NCBI GenBank assembly: GCA_002713705.1
Contig: PAUJ01000003.1
Coordinates: 30,677-62,785, forward strand
Length of the DNA stretch: 32,109 bases
Direction: 5' to 3'
From: Flavobacteriaceae bacterium
GTDB taxonomy: Bacteria; Bacteroidota; Bacteroidia; Flavobacteriales; Flavobacteriaceae
Shown here: positions 12,001 to 16,115 of the stretch, piece by piece
Layout of the letters: every line of letters begins with the position of its first letter
Numbering within the stretch: position 1 is the stretch's first letter
Position numbers and translations under genes: made by a program
Notes under the pieces: generated by a model
What the model saw: only the letters and a program-made list of their open reading frames with translations
Database searches by the model: none
Told to the model about the DNA's origin: nothing

Positions 12001-12615
12001 ATGCACGTTGCAATCGCAGGAAATATAGGAGCTGGAAAAACGACATTAACTCGTTTACTAGCTAAACATTATAAGTGGAAAGCTCAATATGAAGATGTAG
12101 AAGACAATCCATATTTAGATGACTTCTACAATAAAATGGAACGTTGGTCTTTTAATCTTCAGGTTTATTTTTTAAATTCTCGTTTTCGACAAATTTTAGA
12201 TATTCGAAGAGATAAAAAAACCATTATTCAAGATCGAACGATTTATGAAGATGCATTTATTTTCGCCCCTAATCTTCATGCGATGGGATTAATGACCAAT
12301 CGTGATTATGAAAATTACCGCTCATTATTCGATTTAATGGAAAGCGTAACAGAAGCACCAGATTTACTAATCTACTTGAGAAGTTCGATACCAAATTTAG
12401 TGGGTCAAATCCATAAGCGAGGAAGAGAGTACGAAAGCTCTATTAGTATTGATTACCTAAGTAGACTTAATGAACGTTATGAAGCCTGGATTGATCAATA
12501 TAAAAAAGGAAAAATAATAATTTTAGATGTCGACCATATCGATTTTGTAGATAACCCAGAAGATCTTGGAAACATCATCAATAAGATTGATGCGGAGATT
12601 AATGGATTGTTTTAA
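12001..12615 (+). CDS. Deoxynucleoside kinase (dAK/dGK family)
   Basis: P-loop GNIGAGKTT, LQVYFLNSR, IQDRTIYED, GREYE lid. Confidence 0.92.
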   Translation: MHVAIAGNIGAGKTTLTRLLAKHYKWKAQYEDVEDNPYLDDFYNKMERWSFNLQVYFLNSRFRQILDIRRDKKTIIQDRTIYEDAFIFAPNLHAMGLMTNRDYENYRSLFDLMESVTEAPDLLIYLRSSIPNLVGQIHKRGREYESSISIDYLSRLNERYEAWIDQYKKGKIIILDVDHIDFVDNPEDLGNIINKIDAEINGLF

Positions 12616-12631
12616 ACAAAACGTTAAAAAT

Positions 12632-12681
12632 ATATTCATAAAAAAAACCTACTAATTTTAGTAGGTTTTTTTTATGAATAT
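12632..12681. terminator. Bidirectional intrinsic terminator between the convergent kinase and hppA genes
   Basis: Perfect 24-bp inverted repeat ATATTCATAAAAAAAACCTACTAA / TTAGTAGGTTTTTTTTATGAATAT with A8/T8 tracts. Confidence 0.88.
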
Positions 12682-12694
12682 TAATTAAGTAATT

Positions 12695-15448
12695 TTAATC
12701 TTCTTTCTTTGGGTTGAGTTCTAATGAAAATTCAATAGTAACTTCATCACCAAGAGAAACACCTTCTTTTCCAACACCAAATTCTGTTCTCTTTATCGTA
12801 ATTTCACCTTCAAAAGCAGCAGACGGATATCCCCTACCTGTATCTTGTTTACCTAGATAAATCAGAGGAAATTCTATTTCCTTGGTAATATTTCTTATTG
12901 TTAAGTCTCCGGTTACGCTCATTCCATTACCTGTATTTTTAAAACTTTTTGAAACAAAAGTCATCGTTGGAAATTTAGCTGTATCAAAATACTCATCTGA
13001 TCTTAAATGATTGTCTCTATTTTCATTTGAAGTATTAATTGACTCAACATCAATAGTAACGTTCATAGAAGGGGTATCAGAAAAATCTATGACACCTTGA
13101 ATTTTTTGAAAACTACCTTTTGATTTAGCTAAAAAGTGTCTGATAGAAAAATCTACATAAGAATGACTAGCGTCTAATGACCAAACTCCTTGCAATTCTG
13201 AAGTGTTACTTTTCATTACCTCTTCAACTACAACGACCGTCTCTAACACTTTTACTTTATCTTCAGAACTATGTCCTCCTAATATAGGTGCGATCACCAA
13301 TCCAATTAAACACGTAAGTTTAATTAAGATGTTCATGGATGGCCCAGAAGTGTCTTTAAATGGATCACCAACGGTGTCTCCTGTGATTGCTGCTTCATGA
13401 GCGGCAGACCCTTTATGTGTCATCTCACCATTAATCATTACACCTGCTTCAAACGATTTTTTAGCATTATCCCAAGCACCACCTGCATTGTTTTGGAAAA
13501 TTGCCCAAAGCACACCACTTACTGTTACTCCAGCCATATAACCGCCTAACATTTCAGCAATCATTAAATTATCCATTCCAAAAAGCATTGGTACAAATGC
13601 AATCACTAAGGGAAAACCAATAGTTAATAAACCTGGTAACATCATTTCCTTTAGGGATGCTTCCGTAGAAATTGCTACACATTTATCATATTCTGGTTTC
13701 CCAGTACCTTCCATAATTCCTGGAATTTCTTTGAACTGACGACGTACTTCATATACCATTTCCATCGCCGCTTTACCAACTGCATTCATTGCCAAGGCAG
13801 AGAATACCACTGGTACCATACCTCCAACAAATAACATGGCTAAAACAGGTGCTTTAAAAATATTAATACCATCAATACCAGTAAATGTTACATATGCTGC
13901 AAACAATGCCAATGAAGTTAATGCTGCAGAAGCAATAGCAAAACCTTTACCAGTTGCAGCTGTTGTATTACCAACTGAATCTAAAATATCTGTGCGTTCT
14001 CTAACGATAGGATCTTGTTCGCTCATTTCAGCAATTCCACCTGCATTATCTGAAATAGGTCCAAATGCATCAATTGCTAATTGCATCGCTGTTGTAGCCA
14101 TCATTGCTGATGCTGCCATAGCAACACCATAAAATCCTGCAAAAGCATAAGATGACCAGATTGCAGCAGCGAATAAAATTACTGTTGGGAAAGTTGAGAT
14201 CATCCCTGTTGCTAAACCTGCAATAATATTTGTACCTGCTCCTGTAGCAGATTTTTGCACAATATTTAAAATTGGTTTTTTACCTAAACCAGTATAGTAT
14301 TCGGTTACTGAAGAAATAACTGCTCCAACAACTAAACCAACTAAAGTTGAATAAAAAACACGCATTGCAGAAATATATTTTAACACATTACCATTGGATT
14401 CAAAGAAATTCATTTTCATGCTTTCTGGTAACATCCAGATACATAAGAAATAACAAGACACTGCTACTAATAAAATTGAAAACCAGTTTCCTTTATTAAG
14501 AGCTCCCATAACTTGAGATTCTTTGGCATCGTTACTTTTAATACTTACTAGCATAGTACCAAGCATGGAAATAAGTATTCCAATACCAGCAATAGACATC
14601 GGTAATAATATAGGTCCTATTTTACCAAAGCCTGCAAATAGGTCTATGTTGTTTACATCTATAATATAGTTCCCTAAAACCATAGCAGCTAACACTGTTG
14701 CTACGTAGGAACCAAATAAATCTGCTCCCATTCCTGCAACATCACCTACATTATCTCCAACATTATCAGCAATGGTTGCTGGATTACGAGGATCATCTTC
14801 TGGAATACCAGCTTCTACTTTACCTACTAAATCTGCACCAACATCGGCAGCTTTTGTGTAGATACCTCCACCAACACGAGCAAATAAAGCGATAGATTCT
14901 GCACCTAAAGAAAACCCTGCAAGGGTTTCTAATATTTTAGTCATGTCTGTTGTATTTGTCCAACCGTTTGGCATAAAAATCCAAAAGAAAGCTATAAAAA
15001 ATACAGTTAAACCAAGAACGGCTAAACCAGCTACGCCCAATCCCATAACAGTTCCACCACCAAAAGAAACTTTTAATGCTTGTGGCAAACTTGTTCTAGC
15101 TGCTTGTGTGGTTCTTACATTTGTTTTAGTAGCGATCTTCATACCCATGTTACCTGCTAATGCAGAAAATACAGCTCCAAAGATAAAAGCAATAACAATT
15201 AATATACTTGTAGATTCTACAACTTGAGATACAATTGCTAATAAAACACTAGAAACTAAAACAAATATGGTTAGTAACTTATATTCTGCTTTTAAGAATG
15301 CCAAAGCACCTTCATAAATGTGGCTAGAAATTTCAGCCATTTTACCATCTCCTGCATCTTGTTTTAATACCCAAGATCTTTTTATCCACATATAAGCTAG
15401 ACCGATTATGGCTGCCGCTATTGGCATATAAATCATCATTGATTCCAT
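12695..15448 (-). CDS. hppA: K+-dependent membrane-bound pyrophosphatase with C-terminal YceI domain (fusion)
   Basis: GGGIYTKAADVGADLVGKVEAGIPEDDPRN, DNVGDNVGD, GNTTAA, NNAGGAWDNAKK and GDTVGDPFKDTSGPS. The last 164 aa show YceI motifs (WSLDASHSYVDFSIRH, RDNHLRSDEYFD, GDLTIR, IKRTEFG). Confidence 0.93.
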   Translation of the reverse strand: MESMMIYMPIAAAIIGLAYMWIKRSWVLKQDAGDGKMAEISSHIYEGALAFLKAEYKLLTIFVLVSSVLLAIVSQVVESTSILIVIAFIFGAVFSALAGNMGMKIATKTNVRTTQAARTSLPQALKVSFGGGTVMGLGVAGLAVLGLTVFFIAFFWIFMPNGWTNTTDMTKILETLAGFSLGAESIALFARVGGGIYTKAADVGADLVGKVEAGIPEDDPRNPATIADNVGDNVGDVAGMGADLFGSYVATVLAAMVLGNYIIDVNNIDLFAGFGKIGPILLPMSIAGIGILISMLGTMLVSIKSNDAKESQVMGALNKGNWFSILLVAVSCYFLCIWMLPESMKMNFFESNGNVLKYISAMRVFYSTLVGLVVGAVISSVTEYYTGLGKKPILNIVQKSATGAGTNIIAGLATGMISTFPTVILFAAAIWSSYAFAGFYGVAMAASAMMATTAMQLAIDAFGPISDNAGGIAEMSEQDPIVRERTDILDSVGNTTAATGKGFAIASAALTSLALFAAYVTFTGIDGINIFKAPVLAMLFVGGMVPVVFSALAMNAVGKAAMEMVYEVRRQFKEIPGIMEGTGKPEYDKCVAISTEASLKEMMLPGLLTIGFPLVIAFVPMLFGMDNLMIAEMLGGYMAGVTVSGVLWAIFQNNAGGAWDNAKKSFEAGVMINGEMTHKGSAAHEAAITGDTVGDPFKDTSGPSMNILIKLTCLIGLVIAPILGGHSSEDKVKVLETVVVVEEVMKSNTSELQGVWSLDASHSYVDFSIRHFLAKSKGSFQKIQGVIDFSDTPSMNVTIDVESINTSNENRDNHLRSDEYFDTAKFPTMTFVSKSFKNTGNGMSVTGDLTIRNITKEIEFPLIYLGKQDTGRGYPSAAFEGEITIKRTEFGVGKEGVSLGDEVTIEFSLELNPKKED

Positions 15449-15483
15449 ATTTTATTATTTTATTATTTTATTATTAAGGTTTG

Positions 15484-15491
15484 CAAAAGTA
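15484..15491 (-). promoter_or_regulatory. -7 promoter element for hppA
   Basis: TACTTTTG, 35 nt upstream of the ATG and downstream of the ppa terminator. Confidence 0.6.
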
Positions 15492-15508
15492 GTAAATCTA
15501 AATAGAAT

Positions 15509-15542
15509 AAAAAACCCCTCAGAAAACTAATTCTGAGGTGTT
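15509..15542 (-). terminator. Intrinsic terminator after ppa
   Basis: Minus strand AACACCTCAGAA-TTAGTT-TTCTGAGGGGTT (one mismatch) running into a T6 tract. Confidence 0.72.
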
Positions 15543-15565
15543 AACTTTATGTTTATTAGTAGCTT

Positions 15566-16093
15566 TTAAATGGTAAAGTTACCATTAGTTTTATGCTCAC
15601 TATTCTCGTACCTATCCACACATTTATTCAAAATCTCATAGGCTTCTGAAGCATCTCCCCATCCTCCAACATCAACTTTTTTCTCCTCTAAATCTTTATA
15701 TACTTGAAAAAAATGTTCTATTTCTTTTACCATATGAGGATTCATATCAGACAGATCATTTAAACGATTCCAAATAGGATCCGAAATTGGAACACAAATT
15801 AATTTCTCATCTGGTCCTTTTTCATCAGCCATATGAAATACGCCTACAGGTTTTACTTCCATCACACACATTGGAAATGTTGGCTGACTTCCAAGAACTA
15901 AAACATCTAAGGGATCGCCATCTAACGCTAATGTTTCAGGTATAAATCCGTAATCTGCTGGATACATCATAGATGAAAACAACATCCTATCAAATCTAAT
16001 TTTATGTAAATCGAAATCGTATTCGTATTTATTTCTACTTCCTTTTGGTATCTCTATTAATACATCAAAAGATTTGTTTCCGTTTTTAGCCAT
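15566..16093 (-). CDS. ppa: Soluble inorganic pyrophosphatase, family I
   Basis: EIPKGSRNKYE, YPADYGFIP, DGDPLDVLV, DEKGPDEK, FFQVYKDLE. Confidence 0.95.
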   Translation of the reverse strand: MAKNGNKSFDVLIEIPKGSRNKYEYDFDLHKIRFDRMLFSSMMYPADYGFIPETLALDGDPLDVLVLGSQPTFPMCVMEVKPVGVFHMADEKGPDEKLICVPISDPIWNRLNDLSDMNPHMVKEIEHFFQVYKDLEEKKVDVGGWGDASEAYEILNKCVDRYENSEHKTNGNFTI

Positions 16094-16107
16094 ATCTAAA
16101 TTTTATG

Positions 16108-16115
16108 CAAAATTA
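16108..16115 (-). promoter_or_regulatory. -7 promoter element for ppa
   Basis: TAATTTTG, 14 nt upstream of the ATG. Confidence 0.55.

What the first reader, a model, noticed from the sequence alone, without database searches (positions are those of the whole stretch)
12695..13279. Membrane pyrophosphatase fused to a C-terminal YceI lipid/polyisoprenoid-binding domain
Seen: after the last mPPase helix (LIGLVIAPILG) the frame continues without a stop through a roughly 30-aa linker (13190-13279) into a complete 164-aa YceI domain (12698-13189) that has no signal peptide of its own. Established: structurally characterised mPPases (T. maritima, V. radiata) have 16 helices with the C terminus on the non-cytoplasmic side and no such domain. 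YceI proteins are typically periplasmic beta-barrels, and the T. thermophilus one was crystallised with octaprenyl pyrophosphate. Inference: a periplasmic lipid-binding barrel is tethered at the ion exit side of a PPi-driven pump. It might sense or carry prenyl-pyrophosphate, quinone or amphiphiles and regulate pumping, or link pumping to acid/envelope stress. I know of no functional characterisation of this architecture.
Basis: partly seen in the sequence, partly recalled or inferred. Interest (0 to 1): 0.75.

Follow-up and report, generated by a model that had tools for sequence, protein, structure and literature searches.

The report
Proton-pumping pyrophosphatase with tethered YceI barrel
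A marine flavobacterium really does encode a pyrophosphate-driven proton pump with a lipid-binding YceI barrel tethered to its outer (periplasmic) end; the design is conserved, expressed and unstudied, but close relatives have repeatedly lost the barrel, so it looks like an optional add-on, not part of the pump mechanism.

Summary
ORF 12695-15448 (-) encodes 917 aa: a full H_PPase core (Pfam 843 bits, res 14-719), a roughly 26-aa acidic linker predicted to be disordered, and a full YceI domain (146 bits, res 756-911; AF2 pLDDT 93.5; TM 0.90-0.91 to E. coli YceI, PA0423 and TT1927b).

It is not an assembly artefact. Independent metagenome and metatranscriptome contigs cross the junction without indels. 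38 species genomes and more than 150 protein clusters keep the same in-frame fusion. The YceI part is under purifying selection (dN/dS 0.10-0.35).

The pump is the Flavobacterium johnsoniae type: K+-dependent signature, Glu at 5.43, no Glu in TM6. It should therefore pump H+, not Na+ as databases label it.

New context:
- The fusion is rare. It was found in 8 of 28 genomes of the genus, in Vicingaceae and Salibacteraceae, and in none of about 400 other sampled Flavobacteriales.
- YceI-less alleles are nested among fused ones at about six places in the tree.
- Linkers vary from 26 to 104 aa.
- No pump residue tracks YceI presence.
- Other Flavobacteriales pumps carry different C-terminal tails: OmpA, Cys-rich, a 45-55-aa module, or unknown beta domains.

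Best reading: an accessory, flexibly tethered periplasmic isoprenoid-lipid binder, analogous to cytochrome b561-YceI fusions. Its function is untested. I found no paper describing it.

The parts
12695..15448 (-). Whole fusion gene: 917-aa mPPase-linker-YceI protein (stop codon 12695-12697)
   Evidence: expressed in marine metatranscriptomes
13292..15409 (-). H_PPase core (residues 14-719), 16 predicted TM helices, all catalytic motifs present
   Evidence: Pfam 843 bits over the full model; helix pattern in the AF2 model; invariant motifs in the alignment
14897..14899 (-). Glu184 = position 5.43 (GAES-IALFAR). TM6 has no Glu at 6.53/6.57 (DLFGSYVATV). This is the F. johnsoniae-type H+-PPase signature
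   Evidence: invariant in 16/16 aligned fused proteins and present in 31 of the 34 loci with a full-length frame (the motif regex missed L005 and L036; the rest are cut by contig ends); literature
13958..13960 (-). Ala497 in GNTTAA (position 12.46): K+-dependent subclass (Lys here in K+-independent enzymes)
   Evidence: Table 1 of PMC10897367
13277..13345 (-). TM16 (residues 702-724) with gate residues N706 (16.46) and K710 (16.50). It runs from cytoplasm to periplasm and ends in the invariant G724-G-H726
13199..13276 (-). Acidic linker predicted to be disordered (residues 725-750)
   Evidence: pLDDT <50 for 720-747; length 26-104 aa in relatives; dN/dS up to about 1; in-frame -36 nt population variant at 13227-13275
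12698..13198 (-). YceI domain (residues 751-917; Pfam envelope 756-911), eight-stranded lipocalin-like barrel
   Evidence: Pfam 145.6 bits; PDB sequence hits 1Y0G, 5W17, 7BWL, 3HPE, 1WUB; AF2 pLDDT 93.5; Foldseek TM 0.90-0.91, rmsd 1.7-2.2 A; dN/dS 0.10-0.35
12633..12680 (.). Bidirectional intrinsic-terminator hairpin (20-bp stem) between the fusion gene and the convergent deoxynucleoside kinase gene
   Evidence: RNA depth falls below about 12700
15566..16093 (-). Soluble family I inorganic pyrophosphatase directly upstream on the same strand. This is context, not a conserved partner
   Evidence: Pfam PF00719 209.9 bits; one RNA contig spans 15108-16043; adjacency kept only in some Flavobacteriaceae and absent in L004/L005/L007 and Vicingaceae

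Best explanation
The gene encodes a K+-dependent, H+-pumping membrane pyrophosphatase of the Flavobacterium johnsoniae type. Its last helix exits into the periplasm and continues, through a flexible acidic tether, into a complete YceI lipocalin-like barrel.

The pump part should work as any mPPase: PPi is hydrolysed on the cytoplasmic face and protons are expelled through the gate and exit channel. The YceI part is held within a few nanometres of the outer leaflet of the inner membrane. There it most likely binds a long isoprenoid lipid, as crystallised YceI proteins do. The candidates are the cell's menaquinone, a polyprenyl phosphate or a carotenoid.

The fusion replaces the signal peptide of a free YceI with a membrane anchor. 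This gives fixed stoichiometry and fixed location. It is the same design as the published cytochrome b561-YceI (LcoA-BcnA) fusions, which are proposed to protect envelope lipids from peroxidation.

The barrel is an accessory, exchangeable module and not part of the pumping mechanism.

Shown: architecture, integrity, expression, fold, selection, subfamily signatures, patchy distribution. Inferred: topology (from known mPPase structures and OmpA-bearing relatives), H+ specificity (from the E5.43 signature), isoprenoid ligand (from family precedent), accessory role (from repeated absence, free linkers and no co-varying pump residues).
For: - Architecture and integrity.
- Conservation: 151 clusters; 38 species genomes, all in frame.
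- Fold: pLDDT 93.5, TM 0.90-0.91 to 7BWL, 1Y0G and 1WUB. Family signature residues (HxYVxFxIRH, N..RD.HL) are invariant.
- Purifying selection on YceI: dN/dS 0.10-0.35, against 0.04-0.12 for the core.
- Subfamily: E184 at 5.43, no Glu in TM6, GNTTAA matched to the literature.
- Periplasmic side: TM16 polarity, plus an OmpA domain at the same position in a relative (59.5 bits) and in Paucibacter (PMC11210485).
- Precedent for tethered YceI and for isoprenoid/ubiquinone ligands: PMC9113575.
- Accessory nature: only 8 of 28 genomes in the genus are fused, and no stand-alone copy of the fused type exists in the others. YceI-less alleles are nested among fused ones. Linkers are 26-104 aa with near-neutral evolution. 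No pump column is specific to fused forms.
- Context: the organism carries a rhodopsin gene and the sequence recurs in marine metagenomes and metatranscriptomes, so a sunlit-ocean habitat with photo-oxidative lipid damage is plausible.
Against: - No ligand, topology or transport experiment exists.
- The full-length AF2 model is poor (mean pLDDT 62.8), so docking of the barrel on the pump cannot be excluded.
- The genome lacks the cytochrome b561 partner of the BcnA system, so the peroxidation-defence analogy is incomplete.
- The specific YceI subtype was found only fused to mPPases (38 of 38 loci). This argues for some functional tie to this pump beyond a generic anchor.
- Gly724 and His726 after TM16 are invariant across the aligned fused forms, where the intervening residue is nearly always Gly. 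The YceI-less tails of the same clade keep a similar G-(G/S/E)-H start. This hints that the start of the tail matters for the pump.
- Tree-based counts of loss are blurred by recombination, which is evident in this very gene.
Confidence: 0.55

Rival explanations
1. Regulatory plug or sensor. The YceI barrel docks on the periplasmic mouth of the exit channel and gates or tunes pumping in response to a bound lipid or to periplasmic pH.
For: The domain sits at the ion-exit side. Conserved His residues in the barrel (H762, H771, H814) and the invariant His726 after TM16 could be pH-sensitive. This YceI subtype occurs only on mPPases.
Against: Pumps 85-90% identical lack the domain. Linkers range from 26 to 104 aa and may contain an extra 55-aa module. 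No pump residue co-varies with YceI presence, and periplasmic loops are the least conserved region. The conserved His residues are family-wide YceI signatures, not specific to the fusion.
Confidence: 0.12
2. Membrane-tethered antioxidant. The barrel holds menaquinol or a carotenoid and quenches lipid peroxyl radicals next to the inner membrane, like BcnA. In this light-exposed, rhodopsin-bearing bacterium the pump is merely the anchor. This is a specific sub-case of the best explanation.
For: BcnA/YceI lipocalins protect against lipid peroxidation and are fused to a membrane protein in alpha-proteobacteria. The genome encodes a rhodopsin. The gene is expressed in marine metatranscriptomes. A related YceI-AhpC/TSA fusion exists among the homologues (P0163).
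Against: No cytochrome b561 to re-reduce the quinone. No redox partner in the neighbourhood. The ligand is unknown.
Confidence: 0.15
3. Undecaprenyl or prenyl-pyrophosphate handling. The barrel captures periplasmic C55-PP or another prenyl diphosphate, functionally linked to PPi metabolism.
For: YceI crystal structures contain an isoprenoid, typically octaprenyl phosphate, octaprenylphenol or ubiquinone-8, and TT1927b (1WUB) was deposited as a polyisoprenoid-binding protein. Both domains nominally deal with pyrophosphates.
Against: The PPi site is on the cytoplasmic face and the barrel on the periplasmic face, so no substrate can pass between them. No cell-wall or lipid-carrier genes are nearby. 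The domain is dispensable in close relatives.
Confidence: 0.05
4. Artefact: a chimeric assembly, or a frameshifted or decaying gene pair that only looks fused.
For: The genome is a 41-contig draft. The gene is a recombination mosaic.
Against: Independent DNA and RNA contigs cross the junction with no indels. The fusion is kept in frame in 38 species. There is purifying selection on both parts. The mosaic boundary lies inside the pump core (about 14350), not at the junction.
Confidence: 0.01

Closest known systems
Flavobacterium johnsoniae K+-dependent H+-translocating membrane pyrophosphatase (Luoto et al. 2011, as cited in PMC10897367 and PMC6882861)
   Same: Same subfamily signature: Glu at 5.43, none at 6.53/6.57, Ala at 12.46. 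Same bacterial order. All catalytic and gate motifs are present.
   Different: Carries a YceI domain. Sampled genomes of the large genus g18 of the same family carry instead a Cys-rich segment plus a 45-aa module. No transport assay exists for the fused form.
LcoA-BcnA: cytochrome b561-YceI fusions of alpha-proteobacteria (PMC9113575)
   Same: A YceI lipocalin without a signal peptide, joined by a linker to the periplasmic C-terminus of a polytopic inner-membrane protein. The linker replaces the signal peptide.
   Different: The membrane partner is an ion pump, not a haem protein. This genome has no cytochrome b561 above the Pfam threshold, so the proposed quinone re-reduction step has no counterpart.
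mPPase with C-terminal OmpA-like domain (Paucibacter sp., PeerJ 2024 review, PMC11210485)
   Same: An extra periplasmic domain appended after TM16 of an mPPase, role unknown. The same kind of OmpA tail is found here in a Flavobacteriales relative.
   Different: Different appended domain (peptidoglycan binding versus lipid binding). Different mPPase subclass (K+-independent, Betaproteobacteria).
Stand-alone periplasmic YceI proteins: E. coli YceI (1Y0G), P. aeruginosa PA0423 (7BWL), T. thermophilus TT1927b (1WUB), B. cenocepacia BcnA (5IXH)
   Same: Same fold (TM 0.84-0.91), 27-32% identity, family signature residues kept.
   Different: No signal peptide; covalently tethered to a pump. It forms its own subtype, scoring 264 bits to its own profile, while the best stand-alone YceI in 400 Flavobacteriales genomes scored 147 bits.

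Membership tests
Membrane-bound pyrophosphatase (H_PPase, PF03030) | Full-length match to the family model above the curated threshold | tested here: met
   843.2 bits against a cut-off of 29.7, model positions 1-645 of 645
Membrane-bound pyrophosphatase (H_PPase, PF03030) | 16 transmembrane helices with conserved hydrolytic-centre, coupling-funnel and gate motifs (GGG-IYTKAADV, DNVGDNVGD, DTVGDPFKD, N16.46/K16.50) | tested here: met
   All motifs are invariant in the alignment. The helix pattern in the AF2 model fits 16 TMs (low-confidence model). Layout as described in PMC5150537
Membrane-bound pyrophosphatase (H_PPase, PF03030) | PPi hydrolysis coupled to cation transport | not testable with these tools
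   Needs vesicle assays
K+-dependent mPPase subclass | Ala (not Lys) at position 12.46 in the GNTT[A/K]A motif | tested here: met
   GNTTAA, A497; classification table in PMC10897367
F. johnsoniae-type H+-PPase | Semi-conserved Glu relocated to 5.43, with no Glu at 6.53 or 6.57 | tested here: met
   GAE184S-IALFAR191 and DLFGSYVATV; literature. Numbering assumes R191 = 5.50 (from my knowledge of the numbering scheme)
F. johnsoniae-type H+-PPase | Transports H+, not Na+ | not testable with these tools
   Inferred from the signature only. Public annotations call it sodium-translocating
YceI family (PF04264) | Full-length match to the family model above the threshold | tested here: met
   145.6 bits against a cut-off of 23.7, model positions 1-150 of 150
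YceI family (PF04264) | Eight-stranded lipocalin-like beta-barrel fold | tested here: met
   AF2 pLDDT 93.5; TM 0.90-0.91, rmsd 1.7-2.2 A to 7BWL, 1Y0G and 1WUB
YceI family (PF04264) | Binds a polyisoprenoid or quinone in the barrel tunnel | not testable with these tools
   Family precedent only. I could not read model coordinates to analyse the cavity
YceI family (PF04264) | Located outside the cytoplasm | tested here: inconclusive
   Inferred from the even TM count, TM16 polarity and OmpA tails at the same position in relatives. There is no experimental topology
BcnA-LcoA lipid-peroxidation defence system | YceI lipocalin genetically linked or fused to a cytochrome b561 (PF01292) | tested here: not met
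   No PF01292 match above the cut-off anywhere in the 97%-complete genome (best 18.2 bits against 30.1). The partner here is an mPPase

The most novel reading that the evidence does not exclude
Flavobacteriales membrane pyrophosphatases are display platforms. Their periplasmic C-terminus, at the mouth of the proton exit channel, carries interchangeable envelope modules (YceI, OmpA, Cys-rich tails, a 45-55-aa module, unknown beta domains) that are swapped by recombination. In the YceI version, the local proton efflux (low surface pH in alkaline seawater) drives loading or release of an isoprenoid lipid through the barrel's conserved histidines. PPi energy would then be coupled indirectly to lipid or quinone trafficking or repair in the envelope.
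Probability: 0.07. Interest if true: 0.8.

Novelty: new variant of a known kind. Interest (0 to 1): 0.48.

Why it matters
Membrane pyrophosphatases are treated as self-contained 16-helix pumps. Accessory domains are almost absent from the literature: one review notes an OmpA-like tail.

This locus and its relatives show that in a whole bacterial order the pump's periplasmic C-terminus is a site of domain accretion and exchange. The YceI barrel is the best-defined add-on.

If the barrel is functionally tied to the pump, it would be the first link between PPi-driven ion transport and envelope lipid or quinone handling. If it is only anchored there, it is a clean natural example of a streamlined marine genome replacing a signal peptide with a ride on an abundant membrane protein.

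It also corrects the database label: the signature predicts an H+ pump, not a Na+ pump. And it offers natural plus/minus-YceI allele pairs for experiments.

Tried and rejected
1. Exhaustive profile search of 1.84 billion representatives with the YceI profile. It was uninformative for architecture, because fused proteins are clustered under unfused mPPase representatives. It only surfaced C-terminal fragments (P0123-P0125, P0151, P0182, P0208) and showed the family is huge (25,240 hits).
2. Full-length AF2 model with 16 sequences. Mean pLDDT was 62.8, too poor to judge docking of the barrel on the pump. No multimer tool is available.
3. Order-wide Pfam YceI search. The listing was swamped by stand-alone YceI paralogues. 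I replaced it with a search using the fusion-type profile.
4. Soluble PPase as a conserved operon partner. Rejected: the adjacency is present only in some Flavobacteriaceae and is an indel between close relatives.
5. Whether the unknown beta-rich tails of other families are degenerate YceI domains. hhalign probability was 1.3% or less and there were no Pfam hits.
6. Gene fission as the explanation for YceI-less relatives. Rejected: no stand-alone copy of the fused subtype exists in those genomes.
7. Cytochrome b561 partner. Absent.
8. Luoto 2011 and Baykov 2013 could not be read. I could therefore not check whether the characterised F. johnsoniae enzyme's own tail was ever discussed.
Full report
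**What is there**

The minus strand of 12695-15448 is one 917-codon ORF.
- Pfam places a complete H_PPase domain at residues 14-719 (843 bits).
- It places a complete YceI domain at residues 756-911 (146 bits), both over the full model length.
- Between them, TM16 ends in ...LIGLVIAPILGG.
- A 26-residue acidic stretch (HSSEDKVKVLETVVVVEEVMKSNTS) follows. It has no hydrophobic segment and no stop.
- The ORF is followed by a 20-bp-stem bidirectional terminator at 12633-12680 and by a convergent deoxynucleoside kinase gene.
- A soluble family I pyrophosphatase gene lies immediately upstream on the same strand.

**Is the fusion real?**

Contigs assembled independently from marine metagenomes of 2014 and 2025 cover 12600-13475 and 12600-13489 with no difference and no gap. 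Metatranscriptome contigs from separate studies cover 12765-13483 and 12701-13396 without gaps, and RNA depth falls off past the stop. So the junction is contiguous in DNA and is transcribed.

One population variant replaces 49 nt of the linker with 13 nt. That is a net change of -36 nt, still in frame.

A word-indexed search restricted to long proteins found 151 clusters. All 120 listed carry PF03030 plus PF04264, at 49-98% identity in the C-terminal part.

A scan of 185,579 species genomes with two YceI motifs returned 38 loci. All are Flavobacteriales MAGs (Flavobacteriaceae, Vicingaceae, Salibacteraceae). In every one the YceI lies in frame behind an mPPase, with 34 complete frames of 917-994 aa and 4 cut by contig ends.

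Pairwise dN/dS is 0.04-0.12 for the pump core and 0.10-0.35 for the YceI domain. For the linker it ranges from about 0.1 between the closest pairs to about 1.2. Both domains are therefore under purifying selection and the linker is not consistently so.

**What kind of pump**

The protein has GNTTAA (Ala at 12.46, the K+-dependent class). It has no Glu at 6.53 or 6.57 (DLFGSYVATV). It has Glu184 in GAES-IALFAR, which is position 5.43 if R191 is 5.50.

The literature assigns exactly this arrangement to the unusual K+-dependent H+-PPase of Flavobacterium johnsoniae (PMC10897367, PMC6882861). Public annotations such as 'sodium-translocating' or 'K+-stimulated sodium pump' are therefore probably wrong about the ion. 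This remains an inference from signature residues.

**What kind of YceI**

Sequence search of the PDB finds E. coli YceI, C. jejuni YceI, PA0423, HP1286, TT1927b and BcnA/BcnB (E from 6e-23 to 1e-10).

An AF2 model of the domain alone has mean pLDDT 93.5 (35-sequence alignment). It superposes on 7BWL, 1Y0G and 1WUB with TM 0.90-0.91 and rmsd 1.7-2.2 A.

The family signature residues (H762, F767, R770, H771, T806, R811, D812, H814) are invariant across fused forms.

The fused domains form their own subtype. Their profile scores the window's domain at 264 bits, while the best stand-alone YceI in 400 other Flavobacteriales genomes scored only 147 bits.

**Topology**

The hydrolytic centre of mPPases is cytoplasmic, and the funnel, gate and exit channel lead to the periplasm (PMC5150537). 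In this protein:
- the catalytic DTVGDPFKD (691-699) precedes TM16;
- N706 and K710 (16.46 and 16.50) lie within TM16;
- the helix ends at 724, with nothing hydrophobic after it.

The 16-helix pattern puts both termini on the same side. Independent support comes from a Flavobacteriales relative that carries a peptidoglycan-binding OmpA domain at the same position (PF00691, 59.5 bits). A review reports the same for a Paucibacter mPPase (PMC11210485). The barrel is therefore periplasmic. This is inferred, not measured.

**Distribution and evolution**

- Within the window's own genus, 8 of 28 genomes have the fusion. The others have 85-90% identical pumps with no YceI, and no stand-alone copy of the fused subtype, so this is not fission.
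- The YceI-less alleles end in 60-200-aa tails. These hold one or two copies of a 45-55-aa module (…VNVxMEVNDDGxAKATVTTxxTKNGETxxTEQVFEGTEAEVKAxVEALK…) with no Pfam match.
- The same module sits inside the 91-104-aa linkers of some fused forms.
- In a maximum-likelihood tree of pump cores, YceI-bearing rows dominate a 45-row clade. YceI-less rows are nested at about six places, including the window's sister pair.
- An evenly drawn sample of 400 other Flavobacteriales genomes had no fused-type YceI.
- About 290 of those 400 genomes have an mPPase, and most open frames in the listed best matches run about 750-915 aa, against a core of about 730.
- Sampled tails are: a Cys-rich segment plus the module in the large genus g18; OmpA in genus g7; and unknown beta-rich domains in families f16 and f3. 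None of these is detectably related to YceI.

So the C-terminus of these pumps is a general site of periplasmic domain accretion, and YceI is one rare option.

The window's own gene is a recombination mosaic. Its 3' half including YceI and both flanks are 91-98% identical to a sister species (L004). The block 14350-16110 (the 5' half of the pump plus the soluble PPase gene, which the sister lacks) is only 74-87% identical to anything sampled. Recombination can evidently reshuffle parts of this locus.

**Is the barrel coupled to the pump?**

Evidence against tight coupling:
- repeated absence of the domain in near-identical pumps;
- free linker length and sequence;
- no alignment column of the pump core that is conserved in fused forms and changed in YceI-less forms;
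- periplasmic loops as the least conserved class of positions (0.84, against 0.91 for cytoplasmic loops).

Evidence for some tie: the subtype is exclusive to mPPases, and Gly724 and His726 at the helix exit are invariant across the aligned fused forms. The full-length AF2 model is too poor to say more.

**Mechanistic reading**

The best-supported reading is a normal Fj-type H+-pumping PPase that carries a flexibly tethered, periplasmic, isoprenoid-binding YceI barrel as an accessory module.

The closest precedent is the cytochrome b561-YceI (LcoA-BcnA) fusion of alpha-proteobacteria. There a linker replaces the lipocalin's signal peptide, and the pair is proposed to quench membrane lipid peroxyl radicals through a bound quinone (PMC9113575).

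This genome has no cytochrome b561, so membership of that system fails. The physical design is nevertheless the same. The genome encodes a rhodopsin, and near-identical sequence recurs in marine metagenomes and metatranscriptomes. An antioxidant or lipid-chaperone role at the outer face of the inner membrane is therefore plausible.

The regulatory-plug idea and the prenyl-pyrophosphate idea are weaker, for the reasons given above.

**Novelty**

I found no paper that mentions YceI together with a membrane pyrophosphatase in a relevant way. The 2024 review of microbial PPases reports only the OmpA-like tail.

The architecture is visible in automated Pfam annotations of public proteins. Notes from this scan on other genomes describe the same design. 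I treated those as leads and re-derived the points I use.

I rate it a new variant of known kinds: an mPPase with an accessory domain, and a YceI tethered to a membrane protein. Interest is moderate, limited by the absence of any functional handle and by the evidence that the domain is dispensable.

Noticed in passing
window 14350-16110: Recombination mosaic. The 5' half of the mPPase gene plus the whole soluble PPase gene is only 74-87% identical to every sampled relative. The flanks and the 3' half (including YceI) are 91-98% identical to sister species L004. L004, L005 and L007 lack the soluble PPase gene at this site. dS is 0.65 in the core against 0.17 in YceI for the same pair.
   Followed up: partly
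L043, L044, L049, L052, L053 (tails after TM16); linkers of L006, L009-L012, P0082, P0098: An unannotated 45-55-aa module (…VNVxMEVNDDGxAKATVTTxxTKNGETxxTEQVFEGTEAEVKAxVEALK…), predicted beta-beta-beta-alpha and with no Pfam hit. It forms the C-terminal tail of YceI-less mPPases. It also sits inside the long linkers of some YceI-fused ones, and it ends the tails of the large genus g18.
   Followed up: partly
L046 (G030), L066 (G263), genus g7: The mPPase carries a C-terminal OmpA peptidoglycan-binding domain (PF00691, 59.5 bits). Frames of 902-913 aa are typical of that whole genus.
   Followed up: partly
L059-L061, L069 (genus g18): mPPase tails hold a Cys-rich segment (about 10-14 Cys; CC, CxxxC-like spacing; Met-rich) followed by the 45-aa module. 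This could be metal- or redox-related. The biochemically studied F. johnsoniae enzyme may carry such a tail.
   Followed up: no
L047, L063-L065, L067 (families f16, f3): Other mPPases end in 120-165-aa beta-rich tails with no Pfam match and no hhalign similarity to YceI. These are unknown periplasmic domains.
   Followed up: partly
window 13227-13275: A natural population variant in one metagenome replaces 49 nt of the linker with 13 nt (net -36 nt, in frame).
   Followed up: no
P0128, P0267, P0163, P0138 (hits): Other YceI architectures among the homologues: a 338-aa protein joining mPPase TM1-3 directly to a TM16-like helix plus YceI (internal deletion?); a 669-aa unknown polytopic membrane protein with a C-terminal YceI; a YceI-AhpC/TSA peroxiredoxin fusion; a YceI-EF-hand fusion.
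   Followed up: no
window 13271-13279 (residues 724-726): Gly724 and His726, immediately after TM16, are invariant in all aligned fused proteins, and the residue between them is nearly always Gly. YceI-less tails of the same clade start in a similar way (GGH, GSH or GEGH), and more distant family-f15/f16 pumps have a His-rich start (APHI...). This may be part of the proton exit.
   Followed up: no
G000:C34:61443-61922 (L058 3941-4522): The genome's only other YceI is a 193-aa stand-alone protein with a signal peptide, next to a Crp/cNMP-type regulator gene.
   Followed up: no
window 15517-15538: A terminator-like hairpin lies between the soluble PPase and the mPPase genes, yet one RNA contig spans both (15108-16043). 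This suggests partial read-through.
   Followed up: no
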